The position numbers and the translations under genes are program-made. A stretch of DNA of 64,000 nucleotides from assembly GCA_028286615.1 (NCBI GenBank), contig JAQBRG010000003.1, positions 147,406-211,405 of the forward strand, written 5' to 3'. Below the pieces are notes generated by a model. The model saw nothing but the letters and a program-made list of their open reading frames with translations, was not told where the DNA came from and ran no database searches. Position 1 is the stretch's first letter, and each line of letters opens with the position of its first letter. This document shows, piece by piece, positions 2,023 through 51,187 of this stretch. The DNA is from Parcubacteria group bacterium. GTDB taxonomy: Bacteria; Patescibacteriota; Minisyncoccia; Phycocordibacterales; Phycocordibacteraceae.

Positions 2023-2691
2023 TTATTCTGGTATAACCTTCACAAAAGAGTAGCTGCCTTTTGAAAGGTCATATTTCCAGATTTCTTTTGAGGATGTGCG
2101 TGAGAAGCCGTATTCATTAGTCTCATCTATAACAACTTCATACGCAGTAACGTCTATTGAATCTTTATCGTTCCACACATATGAATCAATTACAGGATTA
2201 ACTCCGTTACTGCTTGCAAAGGGTGGCTTAATTGAAATAATTTTTGAATTATTTAGATCAACTAAAGTTATCTTAAAATCTCCACACCCTGCTCCACAAG
2301 CGGTATAACTTCCAAAACTTAGGTAAGCGCTATTGGGAGAGAAAACAGGATTGTCTTTTATAGTTCCAGCAAAGTTTCCAATAACCTTTCCGTTCAAACT
2401 TATATTATAAATTGGGTTTCTGGAGGCTTGACCTGATTCAGAAAAAGATATTTTTGAACTAGTTGTTTGACTTGTAAATACTTTCCTTGTAACACCCTTA
2501 TCTGCAGTTATAGAGAAAATAGGAGCGGGTACATGAAGAGTGTTAGCAGTATGCGATACGGGAGTCGTAGCAGTAGCGTCGGGCAGGCTTACATCTTGTC
2601 GGTTATGAGTAAGCCAGTAGAAAGAAGGTACTCCTAAGATAATGAGGAATATTACAATCAAGATTGCTAGTGTCCGCTTGCTCGTATTCAT
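2023..2691 (-). CDS. signal-anchored secreted/surface protein, AT-rich (likely acquired)
   Basis: N-terminal hydrophobic anchor LAILIVIFLIILGV followed by Ser/Thr/Asn-rich domain. AT-rich codon usage unlike neighbours. Lies exactly between the two rpmG 3'-end repeat copies. Confidence 0.6.
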   Translation of the reverse strand: MNTSKRTLAILIVIFLIILGVPSFYWLTHNRQDVSLPDATATTPVSHTANTLHVPAPIFSITADKGVTRKVFTSQTTSSKISFSESGQASRNPIYNISLNGKVIGNFAGTIKDNPVFSPNSAYLSFGSYTACGAGCGDFKITLVDLNNSKIISIKPPFASSNGVNPVIDSYVWNDKDSIDVTAYEVVIDETNEYGFSRTSSKEIWKYDLSKGSYSFVKVIPE

Positions 2692-10376: not shown

Positions 10377-10453
10377 GGCCTGGTGGCGAAGTAGATTAAC
10401 GCGATGGATTGCAAACCCATTATGCGCGGGTGCGATTCCCGCCCAGGCCTCCA
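10377..10453 (+). tRNA. tRNA-Cys (GCA)
   Basis: Hand-folded cloverleaf: acceptor GGCCTGG/CCAGGCC, anticodon loop TTGCAAA, T-arm GCGGG-TGCGATT-CCCGC, 3' CCA encoded. Irregular: 3-bp D stem, A:C at anticodon-stem base, G at position 55. Confidence 0.6.
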
Positions 10454-10498
10454 AATAACGTCTTGATAATTATTTGATCTCCATATGCTTATGCTGGC

Positions 10499-10996
10499 TT
10501 GATGCCAAAGTATAAGTATAAAAACGATCGATGGAGTGAAGAGAATCTGCGCAAAACAGTTGCGGAGTCACTTAGCATTCGTGAGTGTCTAGAAAAATTG
10601 GGTCTATTTCCTGGAGGTGGAAACTATAGTCAGTATCATTTTCATATCAATAAATACGACATAGATACTTCTCATTACACTGGGCAGGGTTGGCGTAAGA
10701 ATAGAAGAGTGCCTAAAGAACCTTTATACAGTACAGAAGAATTATTTATTGCCGGTGTCCCACGTTCTCGGAGGAATCTCAAGAGGAGATTATACGGAGA
10801 AGGTTTCAAACTACCTAAGTGCGAAGAGTGCGGATGGGCTGAAGTAAGCCCAGACGGCCGCTTGCCTTTGGAGCTTGATCACATAAATGGAGACAATATG
10901 GATAACAGGATAGAGAACCTTCGTATCCTGTGCCCAAACTGTCATAGTTTGAAACCTACCCACAGAGGCAGTAACATGGGCAGAAGGCCGGGGTGA
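10499..10996 (+). CDS. HNH endonuclease (homing-endonuclease-like), AT-rich
   Basis: C-terminal HNH motif CEECGW...LELDHINGDNMDNRIENLRILCPNCHS. AT-rich codon usage. Sits between two tRNA genes, and its stop codon lies inside the 5' acceptor stem of tRNA-Leu. Confidence 0.8.
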   Translation: MMPKYKYKNDRWSEENLRKTVAESLSIRECLEKLGLFPGGGNYSQYHFHINKYDIDTSHYTGQGWRKNRRVPKEPLYSTEELFIAGVPRSRRNLKRRLYGEGFKLPKCEECGWAEVSPDGRLPLELDHINGDNMDNRIENLRILCPNCHSLKPTHRGSNMGRRPG

Positions 10997-11074
10997 TGAA
11001 ATTGGTTAGACATTACAGACTTAAACTCTGTCGGTAGCAATACCATGCGGGTTCGAGTCCCGCCCCCGGCACCA
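10987..11074 (+). tRNA. tRNA-Leu (TAA), type II with long variable arm
   Basis: Acceptor GCCGGGG/CCCCGGC, anticodon stem ACAGA/TCTGT with loop CTTAAAC, variable arm ~15 nt, T-arm GCGGG-TTCGAGT-CCCGC, CCA encoded. The alr ATG overlaps the terminal A. Confidence 0.8.
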
Positions 11075-12231
11075 TGGAATTTTTAAATAAACTTCGTGCT
11101 TTCAAGAACAGGTTCTCGCACTACAGCCCACTAGTAGAGGTTGGAATTTCCCGTGCGAATCTTCTGCACAATCTCCACACCTACCAGGAGTCTTATCCAA
11201 ATCTTAAGTTCGCACCGGTACTTAAAAGCAACGCATACGGACATGACTTAGGTCTTGTGGCTCGCCTACTTGATAAAGAGGACATCGCCTTTTTTATGGT
11301 GGACTCGTTCTATGAGGCACGAAGATTGAGAGGCGCGGGAGTACGCTCTCGTATTCTTGTTATGGGCTACGTGCGTCCAGAAGATATAGTTCGCACTTCT
11401 GTTACAAACGTAGACTTTGCTATAACTGACCTAACACAACTCAAAGAGGTCTCCACTCTTCTTACGCACCCAACACGTATACACCTCAAGCTCGATACTG
11501 GGATGCATCGCCAGGGCATAACTCCGGAAGACCTGGCTGAGGCTATTAGCTTAATAAAGCAGAATTCAAACCTAGAGCTTGTTGGTATCTGTTCTCATTT
11601 TGCAGACGCTGATACAGACAATTCTCCTCATGCCCGTATGCAGGTTAAACGCTTCCAGGAAGCTTCTCTAGTGCTGTCTGAGGCATTTCCTCATATCGAG
11701 TACAAACACCTCGCAGCAACCAAGGGAGTGCGGTATGCAGAGGAAGCAGGAACGAACGTGGCCCGTCCCGGTATCGGTCTCTATGGTTTTGATACTTCCC
11801 CCTCGCATAGCACGCCTCTTAAGCCAGTTCTTGAGCTTCGAGCGATTATTGGGTCTGTACGCACAGTGTCTCCTGGAGAGACGGTTGGATACAACGCGAC
11901 ACACGAGGTTACAAAGGAGTCTCGCATAGCAACTATCCCAGCTGGATACTTTGAAGGCGTAGACCGAAGACTGTCTGGAAAAGGCGTGGTGCTAGTTCGA
12001 GGAGTTGTTTGTCCTATTGTTGGGCGGGTATCCATGAACATGATTAGTGTAGACGTTACGGGCGTTCCTGAGGCAGCTCCAGGAGACTCTGTAGTCCTCA
12101 TCAGCCGCAACCCAGAGGATTTGAATAGCATTCCTCACATTGCCGAAGCCGTAAGCACCCCAGAGTACCGGGAGAGCGAGTACGTCCTTCTCACTCACAT
12201 TCCCCAGCATCTGAGACGTGTGGCTGAATAA
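11074..12231 (+). CDS. alr: alanine racemase
   Basis: PLP-lysine motif VLKSNAYGHD. 385 aa, typical Alr length and C-terminal domain. Confidence 0.9.
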   Translation: MEFLNKLRAFKNRFSHYSPLVEVGISRANLLHNLHTYQESYPNLKFAPVLKSNAYGHDLGLVARLLDKEDIAFFMVDSFYEARRLRGAGVRSRILVMGYVRPEDIVRTSVTNVDFAITDLTQLKEVSTLLTHPTRIHLKLDTGMHRQGITPEDLAEAISLIKQNSNLELVGICSHFADADTDNSPHARMQVKRFQEASLVLSEAFPHIEYKHLAATKGVRYAEEAGTNVARPGIGLYGFDTSPSHSTPLKPVLELRAIIGSVRTVSPGETVGYNATHEVTKESRIATIPAGYFEGVDRRLSGKGVVLVRGVVCPIVGRVSMNMISVDVTGVPEAAPGDSVVLISRNPEDLNSIPHIAEAVSTPEYRESEYVLLTHIPQHLRRVAE

Positions 12232-50575: not shown

Positions 50576-51187
50576 TTATCCATCTGTTTCTTCGCCTTTT
50601 TCAATGGTTCGCTGCCAATTCTTGATATGGATGAATTGGACTCGTCTTTGATCTAGGTCCTCACGTTCAATTATCGCCTTGAGTCGTGTTGAGAATCGAT
50701 TTTTATTGAAAAAATCCTTATTTTGACTGGACACAATTCTAACAGTGGCACCCTTCTCTAAGAGTTTTTCAATCAGGTATGCAAAATCTCCATCTCCCGT
50801 GAAAATCAAAGCTTGGTCCCCTTCTCTTATGGTTTCCAAGGCGTCGACAGTTAGTTCAACATCACAGTTAGATTTCTGATTCCCTTTTACCGTTTCTTTG
50901 TACGTAAAATCGCCGTGGCATTTGGGGCAGGCAACCTCAATCTCCTTAATCGTATTCGGATGAATGTGAGTTAGTTTAGTTCTGACGACATAACCCATTT
51001 CTTCGATTCTCTCGAGCTGCTCCTTCTCTTTCTCGCCCTTATGACCTTTATAGAAAAAGACAGAAGTACATGACCACTTATCGTTTACAAGCAGTTCATA
51101 GAGCTTTGACCAATCAATAGAAAAGCCAAGTACATTCTTGGTTGTACCCGTGGTATTCGGTACGTCTATGAAGGCAAATCTCCGCAT
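50576..51187 (-). CDS. NYN/PIN-like domain protein (LabA/DUF88-like) with CxxC...C zinc ribbon insert
   Basis: MRRFAFIDVPN N-terminus and FTGDGDFAYLIEKLLEKGATVRIV are NYN hallmarks. ACPKCHG...C insert. Confidence 0.6.
   Translation of the reverse strand: MRRFAFIDVPNTTGTTKNVLGFSIDWSKLYELLVNDKWSCTSVFFYKGHKGEKEKEQLERIEEMGYVVRTKLTHIHPNTIKEIEVACPKCHGDFTYKETVKGNQKSNCDVELTVDALETIREGDQALIFTGDGDFAYLIEKLLEKGATVRIVSSQNKDFFNKNRFSTRLKAIIEREDLDQRRVQFIHIKNWQRTIEKGEETDG

What the first reader, a model, noticed from the sequence alone, without database searches (positions are those of the whole stretch)
10377..11074. AT-rich HNH endonuclease gene wedged between tRNA-Cys and tRNA-Leu, its stop codon inside the tRNA-Leu acceptor stem
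A free-standing HNH nuclease ORF (CEECGW...DHINGDNMDNRIENLRILCPNCH) with AT-rich codons occupies the spacer between tRNA-Cys (10377-10453) and tRNA-Leu-TAA (10987-11074). Its stop TGA overlaps tRNA positions 8-10. The tRNA-Leu CCA end in turn overlaps the alr start codon.

This looks like a homing-endonuclease-type mobile gene that has invaded a tRNA operon. The tight overlaps imply that its translation and tRNA processing are coupled, with RNase P cleaving right at the stop codon.
Basis: partly seen in the sequence, partly recalled or inferred. Interest (0 to 1): 0.55.

Follow-up and report, generated by a model that had tools for sequence, protein, structure and literature searches.

The report
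Homing nuclease gene abutting tRNA-Leu
A small selfish nuclease gene sits directly in front of the tRNA-Leu(UAA) gene of this ultra-small (Patescibacteria) bacterium; its relatives occupy the same spot next to tRNA-Leu genes in many other such bacteria and in phages, which makes it a chromosomal example of a mobile-gene type so far described in phage tRNA clusters.

Summary
tRNA-Cys(GCA) lies at 10377-10453, and an intact 164-aa HNH nuclease ORF at 10502-10996. tRNA-Leu(UAA) lies at 10987-11074. The stop TGA occupies tRNA positions 8-10, and the alr ATG shares the last A of CCA.

The homing-endonuclease reading is well supported.
- **Patchy occupancy:** among 11 syntenic relatives the trnC-trnL spacer is occupied in 4 and empty (11-59 nt) in 6, including a pair 91% identical in host proteins.
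- **Changed neighbour:** in that pair three other tRNA genes are identical, but the tRNA-Leu(UAA) next to the nuclease differs at 16 positions.
- **Constant partner:** 75 of 80 metagenomic homologues lie 0-35 nt upstream of a tRNA-Leu(UAA), whatever lies further upstream.
- **Phage relatives:** homologues in phages, including cultured ones and T5 hegA, also sit beside tRNA genes, mostly tRNA-Leu.
- **Foreign composition:** in three of the four occupied loci GC3 is far below that of host genes; in the window the difference is slight.

The claim of designed translation/RNase P coupling is not supported. The stop position varies freely across the family, and RNase P would cut 7 nt before the stop. 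The same arrangement was already discussed for T4 segB.

Verdict: a new member of a known kind. The family-wide link to trnL(UAA) in cellular genomes appears undescribed in the papers I could search.

The parts
10377..10453 (+). tRNA-Cys(GCA), CCA encoded. It is the upstream flank of the insertion.
   Evidence: ARAGORN; Rfam tRNA 58.3 bits. The synteny infB-rbfA-trnC-[HNH]-trnL(UAA)-alr is conserved in relatives.
10474..10531 (+). RNA hairpin spanning the start codon of the nuclease ORF. The AUG at 10502 sits at the loop/stem junction. It may occlude translation initiation.
   Evidence: strand folding gives dG -21.9 kcal/mol, z -3.7, 0 of 200 shuffles as stable. Hairpins near the start also occur in L001, L004 and L027 but not L014, so this is suggestive only. 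A similar hairpin was described for T4 segB (PMC2330249).
10502..10996 (+). Free-standing HNH endonuclease gene, 164 aa (ATG 10502; an in-frame TTG lies at 10499). The last 10 nt, including the stop, lie inside the tRNA-Leu gene.
   Evidence: ORF list. 100% identical to protein P0001 of a Parcubacteria MAG, with 6643 homologues. Pfam HNH; phrog_10822 E 5e-43. Cores intact in 84 of 84 homologues, with pN much lower than pS.
10532..10681 (+). N-terminal three-helix module (residues ~11-60), a presumed DNA-binding domain. Longer family members carry two or three copies.
   Evidence: AlphaFold model, pLDDT >90 here, helices 13-22, 26-32 and 39-51. Repeats visible in the ~275-aa homologues in alignment A1. 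No Pfam match. DNA binding is inferred.
10811..10975 (+). Zinc-finger HNH (beta-beta-alpha-Me) catalytic domain: C107xxC110, D126-H127, N139, C144xxC147-H148.
   Evidence: These residues are invariant in 28 sequences. Pfam PF01844 covers residues 108-152. Best Foldseek matches are the McrA and Cap5 HNH domains. 47% identical to the T5 hegA HNH domain.
10949..10977 (+). Promoter-like site (TTGAAA-17-TAACAT) inside the 3' end of the ORF, ending 9 nt before tRNA-Leu +1. It could drive tRNA-Leu transcription. Unproven.
   Evidence: Consensus scan, 9 of 12 matches; 5 sites found in the region against 3.1 expected. Conserved in WIN, L001, L004 and L014, but the Leu codon that forms the -35 element varies across the wider family.
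10987..11074 (+). tRNA-Leu(UAA). It is the constant partner of the nuclease family and the presumed homing target or co-converted flank.
   Evidence: ARAGORN; Rfam 53.5 bits. 75 of 80 metagenome homologues lie 0-35 nt upstream of a tRNA-Leu(UAA).
10994..10996 (+). Stop codon TGA of the nuclease ORF, equal to tRNA-Leu positions 8-10.
   Evidence: Sequence. The same TGA is present in empty-site alleles. Stop position varies across the family. The window copy has an 11-nt junction instead of 13 nt, which puts it in a different frame from its relatives.
11074..12231 (+). alr (alanine racemase), the downstream flank. Its ATG shares one base with the tRNA CCA.
   Evidence: Pfam Ala_racemase_N and Ala_racemase_C. 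The overlap is conserved in relatives that lack the nuclease.

Best explanation
The ORF is a free-standing HNH homing endonuclease gene, a selfish mobile gene lodged in the short spacer directly 5' of the single-copy tRNA-Leu(UAA) gene.

**Inferred mechanism.** The protein combines an N-terminal helical DNA-binding module with a zinc-finger HNH nuclease. It recognises the conserved trnL(UAA) gene region in genomes that lack the insert and nicks or cuts there. Recombinational repair from an occupied allele then copies in the nuclease gene along with part or all of the adjacent tRNA-Leu gene (co-conversion).

**Expression (inferred).** The insert has no stop codon of its own before the tRNA, so the ORF reads into the tRNA until it meets any stop triplet. 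It is most likely transcribed with the infB-rbfA-trnC-trnL-alr unit. RNase P cleavage at tRNA +1 would then separate the ORF from its stop codon. Together with a hairpin over the start codon, this should keep nuclease expression low.

**Shown:**
- nuclease family membership and intact catalytic residues;
- insertion polymorphism at one locus;
- a changed tRNA allele next to the insert;
- foreign base composition;
- family-wide adjacency to tRNA-Leu genes in bacteria and phages.

**Inferred:**
- DNA cleavage and its target;
- homing itself;
- co-transcription;
- the effect of processing on expression.
For: 1. **Nuclease identity.** Pfam HNH; phrog_10822 at E 5e-43. Cys4, DH, N and H are invariant in 28 sequences. 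The model has pLDDT 87 with a helical N-domain and an HNH domain.
2. **Occupied versus empty site.** WIN, L001, L004 and L014 carry the gene between trnC and trnL(UAA). L005, L007 and L010-L013 have 11-59-nt spacers.
3. **Scattered on the host tree.** Occupied genomes are scattered on the IF2+Alr tree. L012 (empty) and L014 (occupied) are 91% identical in these proteins.
4. **Changed tRNA allele.** Between L012 and L014, tRNA-Cys, tRNA-Lys and tRNA-Leu(UAG) are 100% identical. tRNA-Leu(UAA) has 16 differences, many of them compensatory (Fisher p 4e-10).
5. **Parallel case with another nuclease family.** A LAGLIDADG ORF lies directly upstream of, and reads into, tRNA-Cys in L010 and L013. It is absent from L011, which is 95% identical to L010. 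Only tRNA-Cys differs between L010 and L011 (5 positions).
6. **Metagenome homologues.** 75 of 80 loci have tRNA-Leu(UAA) 0-35 nt downstream on the same strand, and three of the other five end at the contig edge or in repeats that start with tRNA-Leu sequence. The upstream neighbour varies (trnC on either strand, other tRNAs, other genes), and so does the downstream context.
7. **Phage homologues.** 24 of 32 directly adjacent tRNAs are Leu(UAA), against 11 of 217 non-adjacent tRNAs in the same loci.
8. **Cultured phages.** SP22 and mistaenkt copies end 1 nt before tRNA-Leu(UAG). GodonK and S-CRM01 copies start just after a tRNA-Leu gene. The T5 hegA HNH domain, in the T5 tRNA region, is 47% identical.
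9. **Composition.** HNH GC3 is 0.34-0.40, against 0.43-0.67 for flanking host genes. HNH GC is lower than the flanks in 48 of 53 loci.
[quoted passage not shown] Its ORF is severed from its stop codon by tRNA-Arg processing, and its start is sequestered in a hairpin (PMC2330249).
Against: - No cleavage activity, target site or transfer event has been observed. Everything mechanistic is inferred from comparison.
- HNH amino-acid identities among the four syntenic copies (58-74%) are similar to host-protein identities (63-71%). HNH GC tracks host GC (r 0.90). Long vertical residence with repeated loss is therefore as compatible with the data as repeated gain.
- All 84 cores examined are intact and under strong purifying selection. 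This could mean a host-useful function. The sample is biased, because only the best-scoring hits were kept.
- The 16 tRNA differences could reflect escape mutations or relaxed or accelerated evolution rather than co-conversion. No donor allele was found; the nearest allele in my set is 85% identical.
- tRNA-Leu alleles from occupied and empty sites show no diagnostic difference in my small empty-site sample (n=7).
- In this window the compositional anomaly is weak (z -1.5).
Confidence: 0.7

Rival explanations
1. Domesticated resident gene. An old HNH gene is inherited vertically at this locus and kept because it serves the host, for example in DNA repair or recombination or in regulating the tRNA operon. 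Its absence in some relatives reflects simple loss.
For: - The gene sits at the same locus in relatives whose HNH identity (58-74%) is similar to host-protein identity.
- Cores are intact in 84 of 84 copies. pN is 0.04-0.3 while pS is saturated.
- HNH GC correlates with host GC (r 0.90).
- The family is very large, with 6643 hits.
Against: - The gene is missing from 7 of 11 syntenic relatives, including one 91% identical to a carrier.
- GC3 is 0.15-0.3 below host genes in L001, L004 and L014.
- The adjacent tRNA allele changes with presence or absence.
- Homologues sit in phage tRNA clusters.
- An unrelated LAGLIDADG nuclease shows the same architecture at tRNA-Cys, which fits selfish elements rather than a shared host function.
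Confidence: 0.15
2. Designed coupling of translation and tRNA processing. The exact overlap of the stop codon with tRNA positions 8-10 is a functional device linking nuclease synthesis to RNase P cleavage.
For: - The overlap is real.
- ORF read-in to the tRNA occurs in 52 of 79 loci.
- Stop-codon removal by tRNA processing was proposed as a control for T4 segB.
Against: - The stop position is not conserved. It falls at about 20 different tRNA positions, or before the tRNA in 27 of 79 loci.
- The window's frame differs from its closest relatives because of a 2-nt shorter junction.
- The TGA at positions 8-10 pre-exists in empty alleles.
- RNase P would cut 7 nt upstream of the stop, not at it.
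- Any down-regulation is a generic result of abutment, not of this particular overlap.
Confidence: 0.05
3. Conflict module. The host keeps the nuclease because it cuts incoming phage DNA at phage-borne tRNA-Leu(UAA) genes. Alternatively, the gene is a remnant of phage DNA carrying a tRNA-Leu plus nuclease cassette that replaced the host tRNA gene.
For: - Phage homologues lie next to phage tRNA-Leu(UAA) genes.
- A phage assigned to a patescibacterium carries tRNA-Leu(TAA) (bioRxiv 10.1101/2024.03.08.584096).
- The tRNA-Leu allele in L014 is foreign-looking.
- There is a weak NCBIfam hit to the HNH part of ZorE.
Against: - The ZorE hit scores 24.8 bits against a 600-bit cut-off, so it reflects only the generic HNH motif.
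- No other phage genes flank the insert; infB, rbfA and alr are host genes.
- The best phage homologues are only 37-51% identical.
- There is no defence-island context and no experimental evidence.
Confidence: 0.1

Closest known systems
Phage T4/T6 SegB, a free-standing GIY-YIG homing endonuclease in the tRNA gene cluster (PMC2330249; PMC13096335)
   Same: - A free-standing nuclease gene wedged between tRNA genes.
- It cuts inside tRNA genes of relatives that lack it and drags flanking tRNA genes along.
- Its ORF is severed from its stop codon by maturation of the downstream tRNA.
- Its start codon lies in a hairpin of about -20 kcal/mol.

The window shows the same anatomy.
   Different: - SegB belongs to a different nuclease superfamily (GIY-YIG, not HNH), so there is no homology.
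- SegB is phage-borne, whereas this gene is chromosomal in a bacterium.
- SegB homologues show no tRNA isotype preference, whereas this family is tied to tRNA-Leu, chiefly UAA.
- Activity is demonstrated for SegB and only inferred here.
[quoted passage not shown] 2004, as cited in PMC2330249)
   Same: - These are HNH enzymes encoded among tRNA genes.
- The hegA HNH domain is 47% identical to residues 78-162 of the window protein (E 1e-20).
- The T5 hegC and hegD ORFs overlap the downstream tRNA genes.
- Reduced expression through tRNA processing was proposed for them too.
   Different: - Only the C-terminal half is homologous. The T5 hegA N-terminus carries other helix-turn-helix (HTH) domains (annotation).
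- hegA neighbours tRNA-Ile2, not tRNA-Leu.
- They are phage genes.
- Equating hegA with F-TflI rests on naming order in the record and was not checked.
HNH endonuclease genes of Ounavirinae coliphages (e.g. Escherichia phage mistaenkt gp113, SP22 S22E157_0480) and other cultured phages (Gordonia GodonK gp149, Synechococcus S-CRM01 g201)
   Same: - These are full-length homologues, 36-41% identical over 86-100% of the protein.
- The mistaenkt and SP22 genes end 1 nt before a tRNA-Leu gene inside a tRNA cluster.
- The GodonK and S-CRM01 genes start just after a tRNA-Leu gene, and their ORFs run into the next tRNA.
   Different: - The partner is tRNA-Leu(UAG) or (CAA), not UAA.
- They are phage genes.
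- They are annotated only as 'HNH endonuclease' or 'hypothetical'. I found no functional study of them.
Intron-encoded HNH homing endonucleases: I-HmuI, and the HNH genes in group I introns of Patescibacteria tRNA-Asn (PMC13011429)
   Same: - They have HNH catalytic cores.
- They home to conserved genes, and tRNA genes are targets in the same phylum.
   Different: - There is no intron here. Rfam finds only the two tRNAs, and the tRNA-Leu gene is uninterrupted.
- Structural similarity to I-HmuI is not significant (Foldseek E 2.6).
- The cited paper does not mention free-standing nuclease genes beside tRNAs (0 occurrences of 'free-standing').

Membership tests
HNH / His-Me finger endonuclease superfamily (Pfam PF01844) | Sequence match above the curated threshold. 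| tested here: met
   PF01844 at 28.2 bits against a 21.4-bit cut-off, residues 108-152. PF13392 (HNH_3) scores 24.4 against 24.8, just below its cut-off.
HNH / His-Me finger endonuclease superfamily (Pfam PF01844) | Catalytic His (general base), Asn and metal-binding His, plus the Cys4 zinc site in the zinc-finger subclass. | tested here: met
   D126-H127, N139, H148, C107/C110 and C144/C147 are invariant in a 28-sequence alignment.
HNH / His-Me finger endonuclease superfamily (Pfam PF01844) | Beta-beta-alpha-metal fold. | tested here: met
   The AlphaFold model has strands 124-127 and 140-143 followed by helix 145-149, with pLDDT >90. The best Foldseek matches are the HNH domains of EcoKMcrA, ScoMcrA and Cap5, at probability 0.96-0.99 but E only 5e-3 to 0.2.
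PHROG phrog_10822 (phage HNH endonucleases) | Full-length profile match. | tested here: met
   E 5.1e-43, 148.5 bits; residues 8-161 against profile positions 4-156 of 245.
Free-standing homing endonuclease gene (functional class) | Presence/absence polymorphism at one homologous locus in close relatives. | tested here: met
   4 occupied, 6 empty and 1 ambiguous among 11 syntenic loci. L012 (empty) and L014 (occupied) are 91% identical in IF2+Alr.
Free-standing homing endonuclease gene (functional class) | Co-conversion or divergence of flanking markers linked to the insert. | tested here: inconclusive
   tRNA-Leu(UAA) shows 16 differences between L012 and L014, against 0 in three other tRNAs. 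This fits co-conversion, but no donor allele was identified, and escape mutation is an alternative.
Free-standing homing endonuclease gene (functional class) | Site-specific cleavage of the allele that lacks the gene, and preferential inheritance. | not testable with these tools
   Needs a biochemical cleavage assay and a genetic cross or transformation.
Free-standing homing endonuclease gene (functional class) | Not embedded in an intron or intein. | tested here: met
   Both flanking tRNAs are complete and uninterrupted. There are no intron families in Rfam at E<=0.1.
SegB-like GIY-YIG endonucleases | GIY-YIG catalytic domain. | tested here: not met
   The Pfam scan finds only HNH families. 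The gene resembles SegB in arrangement but is not a member.
Zorya type II ZorE / IscB (NCBIfam hits) | Score above the equivalog cut-off. | tested here: not met
   ZorE scores 24.8 bits against 600, and IscB 15.8 against 175. Only the HNH motif matches.

The most novel reading that the evidence does not exclude
The nuclease and the tRNA-Leu(UAA) gene form one mobile cassette, a 'tRNA-allele drive', that moves between Patescibacteria and their phages and replaces the resident essential tRNA gene each time. Hosts may retain it because the enzyme also cuts phage DNA at phage-borne tRNA-Leu(UAA) genes, so a homing endonuclease would double as a defence. Together with the LAGLIDADG/tRNA-Cys case, this would make the 5' edges of tRNA genes a general landing pad for selfish nucleases in these tiny genomes.
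Probability: 0.12. Interest if true: 0.75.

Novelty: new member of a known kind. Interest (0 to 1): 0.45.

Why it matters
Free-standing homing endonucleases beside tRNA genes have been studied in phages: T4 SegB and the T5 Heg enzymes.

This locus shows the same element type living in the chromosome of a reduced-genome bacterium, at an essential single-copy tRNA gene. Its family counts thousands of members and stays tied to one tRNA identity, tRNA-Leu and mostly UAA, across both Patescibacteria and phages.

**What this offers:**
- A natural system for studying how a nuclease recognises a tRNA gene as DNA.
- A way to ask how selfish genes persist in genomes under strong streamlining.
- A test of whether tRNA alleles are exchanged between these bacteria and their phages.

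**Practical consequences:**
- Gene callers extend these ORFs into tRNA genes, producing artefactual C-terminal tails such as 'RGGEIGIHATLKTL'.
- tRNA-Leu(UAA) phylogenies in this phylum may be confounded by co-conversion.

Tried and rejected
- **Promoter inside the ORF's 3' end as a family-wide feature.** TTGAAA-17-TAACAT (10949-10977) is conserved in the four syntenic copies. Across 84 loci, however, the Leu codon forming the -35 element is TTG, TTA, CTN or ATG, and the scan hit is at chance level. I kept it only as a local possibility.
- **Sequence search of the PDB with the family profile.** Only marginal McrA hits (E 0.19-0.4).
- **Foldseek against the PDB.** Generic HNH domains only; I-HmuI is not significant.
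- **NCBIfam.** The ZorE and IscB hits are far below cut-off, so defence-system membership is rejected.
- **Paralogues in the window.** None. The best other tblastn hit has E 0.17, and it falls in an ORF (50576-51187) with an NYN domain, not an HNH domain.
- **dN/dS.** No pair has usable synonymous divergence; copies are either identical or saturated. I report only pN against pS.
- **Diagnostic differences between occupied and empty tRNA-Leu alleles.** None seen with 7 empty alleles.
- **L008 198-nt spacer as a group I intron or nuclease remnant.** No Rfam family at E<=1 and no homologous ORF. It remains unexplained.
- **Literature.** I found no paper describing free-standing nucleases beside tRNA genes in Patescibacteria. 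The searched library is incomplete.
Full report
**1. What is in the sequence**

ARAGORN and Rfam agree on tRNA-Cys(GCA) at 10377-10453 and tRNA-Leu(UAA) at 10987-11074. Between them lies one long ORF, 10499(TTG)/10502(ATG)-10996 on the + strand. It is identical to a 164-aa hypothetical protein of a Parcubacteria-group MAG.

The ORF matches Pfam HNH above threshold and phrog_10822 'HNH endonuclease' at E 5e-43. Read directly:
- The stop TGA is 10994-10996, which is tRNA positions 8-10.
- The tRNA 5' end falls inside codon AGG (10985-10987).
- The alr ATG (11074) shares its A with the tRNA CCA.

The flanking genes are infB, rbfA and alr.

'AT-rich' is weak in this genome. The ORF has GC 43.6% against 49.8% for the window (z -1.5, fourth lowest of 48 ORFs). 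GC3 is 0.40-0.41 against 0.43-0.54 in its neighbours.

**2. The protein**

In an alignment of 28 family members, the two CxxC pairs, D126-H127, N139 and H148 are invariant. An AlphaFold model (pLDDT 87) shows an N-terminal three-helix module and a C-terminal beta-beta-alpha domain.

The nearest solved folds are the HNH domains of McrA enzymes and Cap5. I-HmuI is not a significant match. Longer homologues (~275 aa) repeat the N-terminal module two or three times. This is the modular pattern expected of a DNA-binding domain, but DNA binding is an inference.

**3. Empty and occupied sites**

A scan with Alr recovered 11 Patescibacteria loci with the synteny infB-rbfA-trnC-trnL(UAA)-alr-trnK-trnL(UAG).
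- The nuclease gene is present in the window, L001, L004 and L014.
- In L005, L007 and L010-L013 the trnC-trnL spacer is only 11-59 nt.
- L008 has an unexplained 198-nt spacer.

On an IF2+Alr tree the four carriers are scattered, each next to non-carriers. L012 (empty) and L014 (occupied) are 91% identical in these proteins.

This is not met. The gene is patchy. Its GC3 is 0.34-0.37 in L001, L004 and L014, where host genes have 0.51-0.67. Across 53 loci with enough flank, the nuclease gene has lower GC than its surroundings in 48.

**4. A signature on the neighbouring tRNA**

Between L012 and L014, tRNA-Cys, tRNA-Lys and tRNA-Leu(UAG) are 100% identical. The tRNA-Leu(UAA) that abuts the nuclease differs at 16 positions, many of them compensatory pairs (Fisher p 4e-10). 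L012's allele is the ordinary one for the clade, 95% identical to L008's. L014's has no close relative in my set.

The same pattern appears with a different nuclease. L010 and L013 carry a LAGLIDADG ORF (Pfam LAGLIDADG_3) directly upstream of tRNA-Cys. It reads into the tRNA in L013 and right through it in L010. L011 is 95% identical to L010 and lacks this ORF. Between these two genomes only tRNA-Cys differs, at 5 positions in its 5' half, while three other tRNAs are identical.

This is what co-conversion during homing, or target-site escape, would produce. It is hard to explain if the ORFs were ordinary host genes.

**5. The family follows tRNA-Leu**

The family is large: 6643 hits, mostly Patescibacteria.

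*Metagenome loci.* Of 80 loci carrying homologues 46-59% identical to the window copy, 75 have tRNA-Leu(UAA) on the same strand starting 0-35 nt after the conserved end of the protein. In two of those 75 the listed distance is 127 or 62 nt, but L059 carries a tRNA-Leu 5' fragment directly after the ORF. Of the five without a called tRNA, three end at the contig edge or in repeats that begin with tRNA-Leu sequence. Only two (L067, L096; GC-rich, non-Patescibacteria-like codons) lack it.

The upstream neighbour varies: trnC on the same strand in 38 loci, trnC on the opposite strand in 16, other tRNAs, or other genes. What follows the tRNA also varies. The constant partner is therefore the tRNA-Leu(UAA) gene, not the operon.

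*Viral contigs.* Among IMG/VR homologues (37-51% identical; 60 distinct sequences), 24 of 32 directly adjacent tRNAs are Leu(UAA). Only 11 of 217 other tRNAs in the same loci are (p 2e-18, not corrected for relatedness). In these contigs the nuclease gene is usually just downstream of the tRNA.

*Cultured phages* show the same picture:
- In Escherichia phages SP22 and mistaenkt the homologue ends 1 nt before tRNA-Leu(UAG) in the tRNA cluster.
- In Gordonia phage GodonK it lies between tRNA-Leu(UAG) and tRNA-Glu and overlaps the latter.
- In Synechococcus phage S-CRM01 it starts within tRNA-Leu(CAA) and ends in tRNA-Ile.
- In Vibrio phage D69 it overlaps the downstream tRNA.
- The T5 hegA HNH domain, in the T5 tRNA region, is 47% identical to residues 78-162.

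**6. The stop codon inside the tRNA**

The C-terminal tails of many family members ('...RRRGGEIGIHATLKTL') are simply the translated 5' half of tRNA-Leu(UAA).

Across 79 loci the stop lies inside the tRNA in 52 and before it in 27. Inside the tRNA it falls at positions 8, 11, 13, 16, 20, 34-36, 45, 51 and others. In L001 and L014 the stop is the TAA anticodon itself. Stops before the tRNA lie 2-98 nt upstream, within 36 nt in all but one case.

The window copy has a junction 2 nt shorter than its relatives. This shifts the frame onto the TGA at positions 8-10, a triplet that also exists in empty alleles. The specific overlap is therefore incidental. What is conserved is the abutment.

If the ORF is co-transcribed with the tRNA, RNase P cleavage at 10986/10987 would remove the stop codon. 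No + strand terminator-like site lies between rbfA and alr. In addition, the start codon lies in a hairpin (dG -21.9 kcal/mol, z -3.7). Similar hairpins occur in some relatives but not all.

Both features were described and interpreted as negative controls for T4 segB, and proposed for the T5 tRNA-region endonucleases (PMC2330249). Here they are inferences.

**7. Selection**

All 84 cores examined are open. Synonymous sites are saturated (pS 0.55-0.86) while pN is 0.04-0.3. The protein is under purifying selection. This fits an element kept active by repeated homing, and it equally fits a host-useful gene.

HNH identities among the syntenic copies (58-74%) resemble host-protein identities, and HNH GC tracks host GC (r 0.90). 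Long residence within lineages is therefore likely. I cannot separate repeated gain from repeated loss.

**8. Verdict**

The best reading (confidence about 0.7) is a free-standing HNH homing endonuclease gene whose homing site is the tRNA-Leu(UAA) gene region.
- It works like T4 SegB but belongs to a different superfamily.
- It is homologous to HNH genes of phage tRNA clusters, including T5 hegA.
- A host-domesticated gene (0.15) and a conflict or defence role (0.1) remain possible.
- The designed-coupling idea is unlikely (0.05).

It is a new member of a known kind. In the papers I could search, I found no description of the strict link to tRNA-Leu in thousands of Patescibacteria genomes, or of the parallel LAGLIDADG/tRNA-Cys case. 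That is the part worth following up.

Noticed in passing
L010:3105-3899 and L013:3104-3832: A LAGLIDADG endonuclease ORF (Pfam LAGLIDADG_3) lies between rbfA and tRNA-Cys. It reads into tRNA-Cys in L013 and right through it in L010. It is absent from L011, which is 95% identical to L010, and only tRNA-Cys differs between those two genomes. This is a second nuclease family with the same tRNA-abutting architecture.
   Followed up: partly
L008:3715-3912: The 198-nt spacer between tRNA-Cys and tRNA-Leu(UAA) ends with a near-copy of the tRNA-Cys 3' end (GATCCCGCTCGGGCCTCCA). This looks like an att-type duplication or a remnant of an insertion. There is no Rfam hit and no homologous ORF.
   Followed up: partly
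window 11072-11076; also L010-L013: The alr start codon overlaps the encoded CCA of tRNA-Leu (CCATGG or CCATGA). The overlap is conserved in relatives with and without the nuclease. One transcript therefore cannot yield both a mature CCA end and an alr mRNA with an intact AUG, unless alr is made from unprocessed RNA or the tRNA 3' end is rebuilt.
   Followed up: partly
L059:1209-1330 and L051:1380-1613: After the nuclease ORF comes a 22-nt tRNA-Leu 5' fragment (GCCGGGGTGGCGAAATCGGTAG), then ~105 nt, then the full tRNA. In L051 this ~127-nt unit repeats in tandem to the contig end. The repeat boundary in the D-arm could mark a break point (compare SegB-driven amplification, PMC13096335) or an assembly artefact.
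   Followed up: no
window 10949-10977: A promoter-like TTGAAA-17-TAACAT lies inside the nuclease ORF's 3' end, 9 nt before tRNA-Leu +1. It is conserved in the four syntenic copies but not family-wide. It could restore tRNA-Leu transcription after insertion.
   Followed up: partly
alignment A1 (P0018, P0024, P0031, P0052, P0060, P0065, P0074): The ~275-aa forms of the family carry two or three copies of the N-terminal helical module. They end with their own basic tail (NQKRRK...) rather than translated tRNA. One is named as coming from Kofleriaceae. Two GC-rich metagenome copies (L067, L096) lack any adjacent tRNA-Leu.
   Followed up: no
L193 (phage T5 20000-50000): In the T5 tRNA region, the ORFs hegC, hegD and T5.069 each overlap the 5' end of the downstream tRNA gene by 14-24 nt (tRNA-Ser, tRNA-Gln and tRNA-Asn). 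hegC lies just downstream of tRNA-Leu(UAG).
   Followed up: no
window 2023-2691 (-) and 50576-51187 (-): These are the two lowest-GC ORFs in the window. The first has 37.5% GC and no Pfam match. The second has 41% GC and an NYN (predicted nuclease) domain next to lepA. Both could be foreign genes.
   Followed up: partly
L012:3386-3774: L012 has ~390 nt between rbfA and tRNA-Cys that its 91%-identical relative L014 lacks. The region holds a 148-aa minus-strand ORF with coiled-coil-like repeats that overlaps tRNA-Cys on the opposite strand. I did not identify it.
   Followed up: no
L007:3427-4000: About 570 nt separate tRNA-Leu(UAA) from alr in this relative, where the others have 0-3 nt. No ORF there resembles the nuclease.
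   Followed up: no
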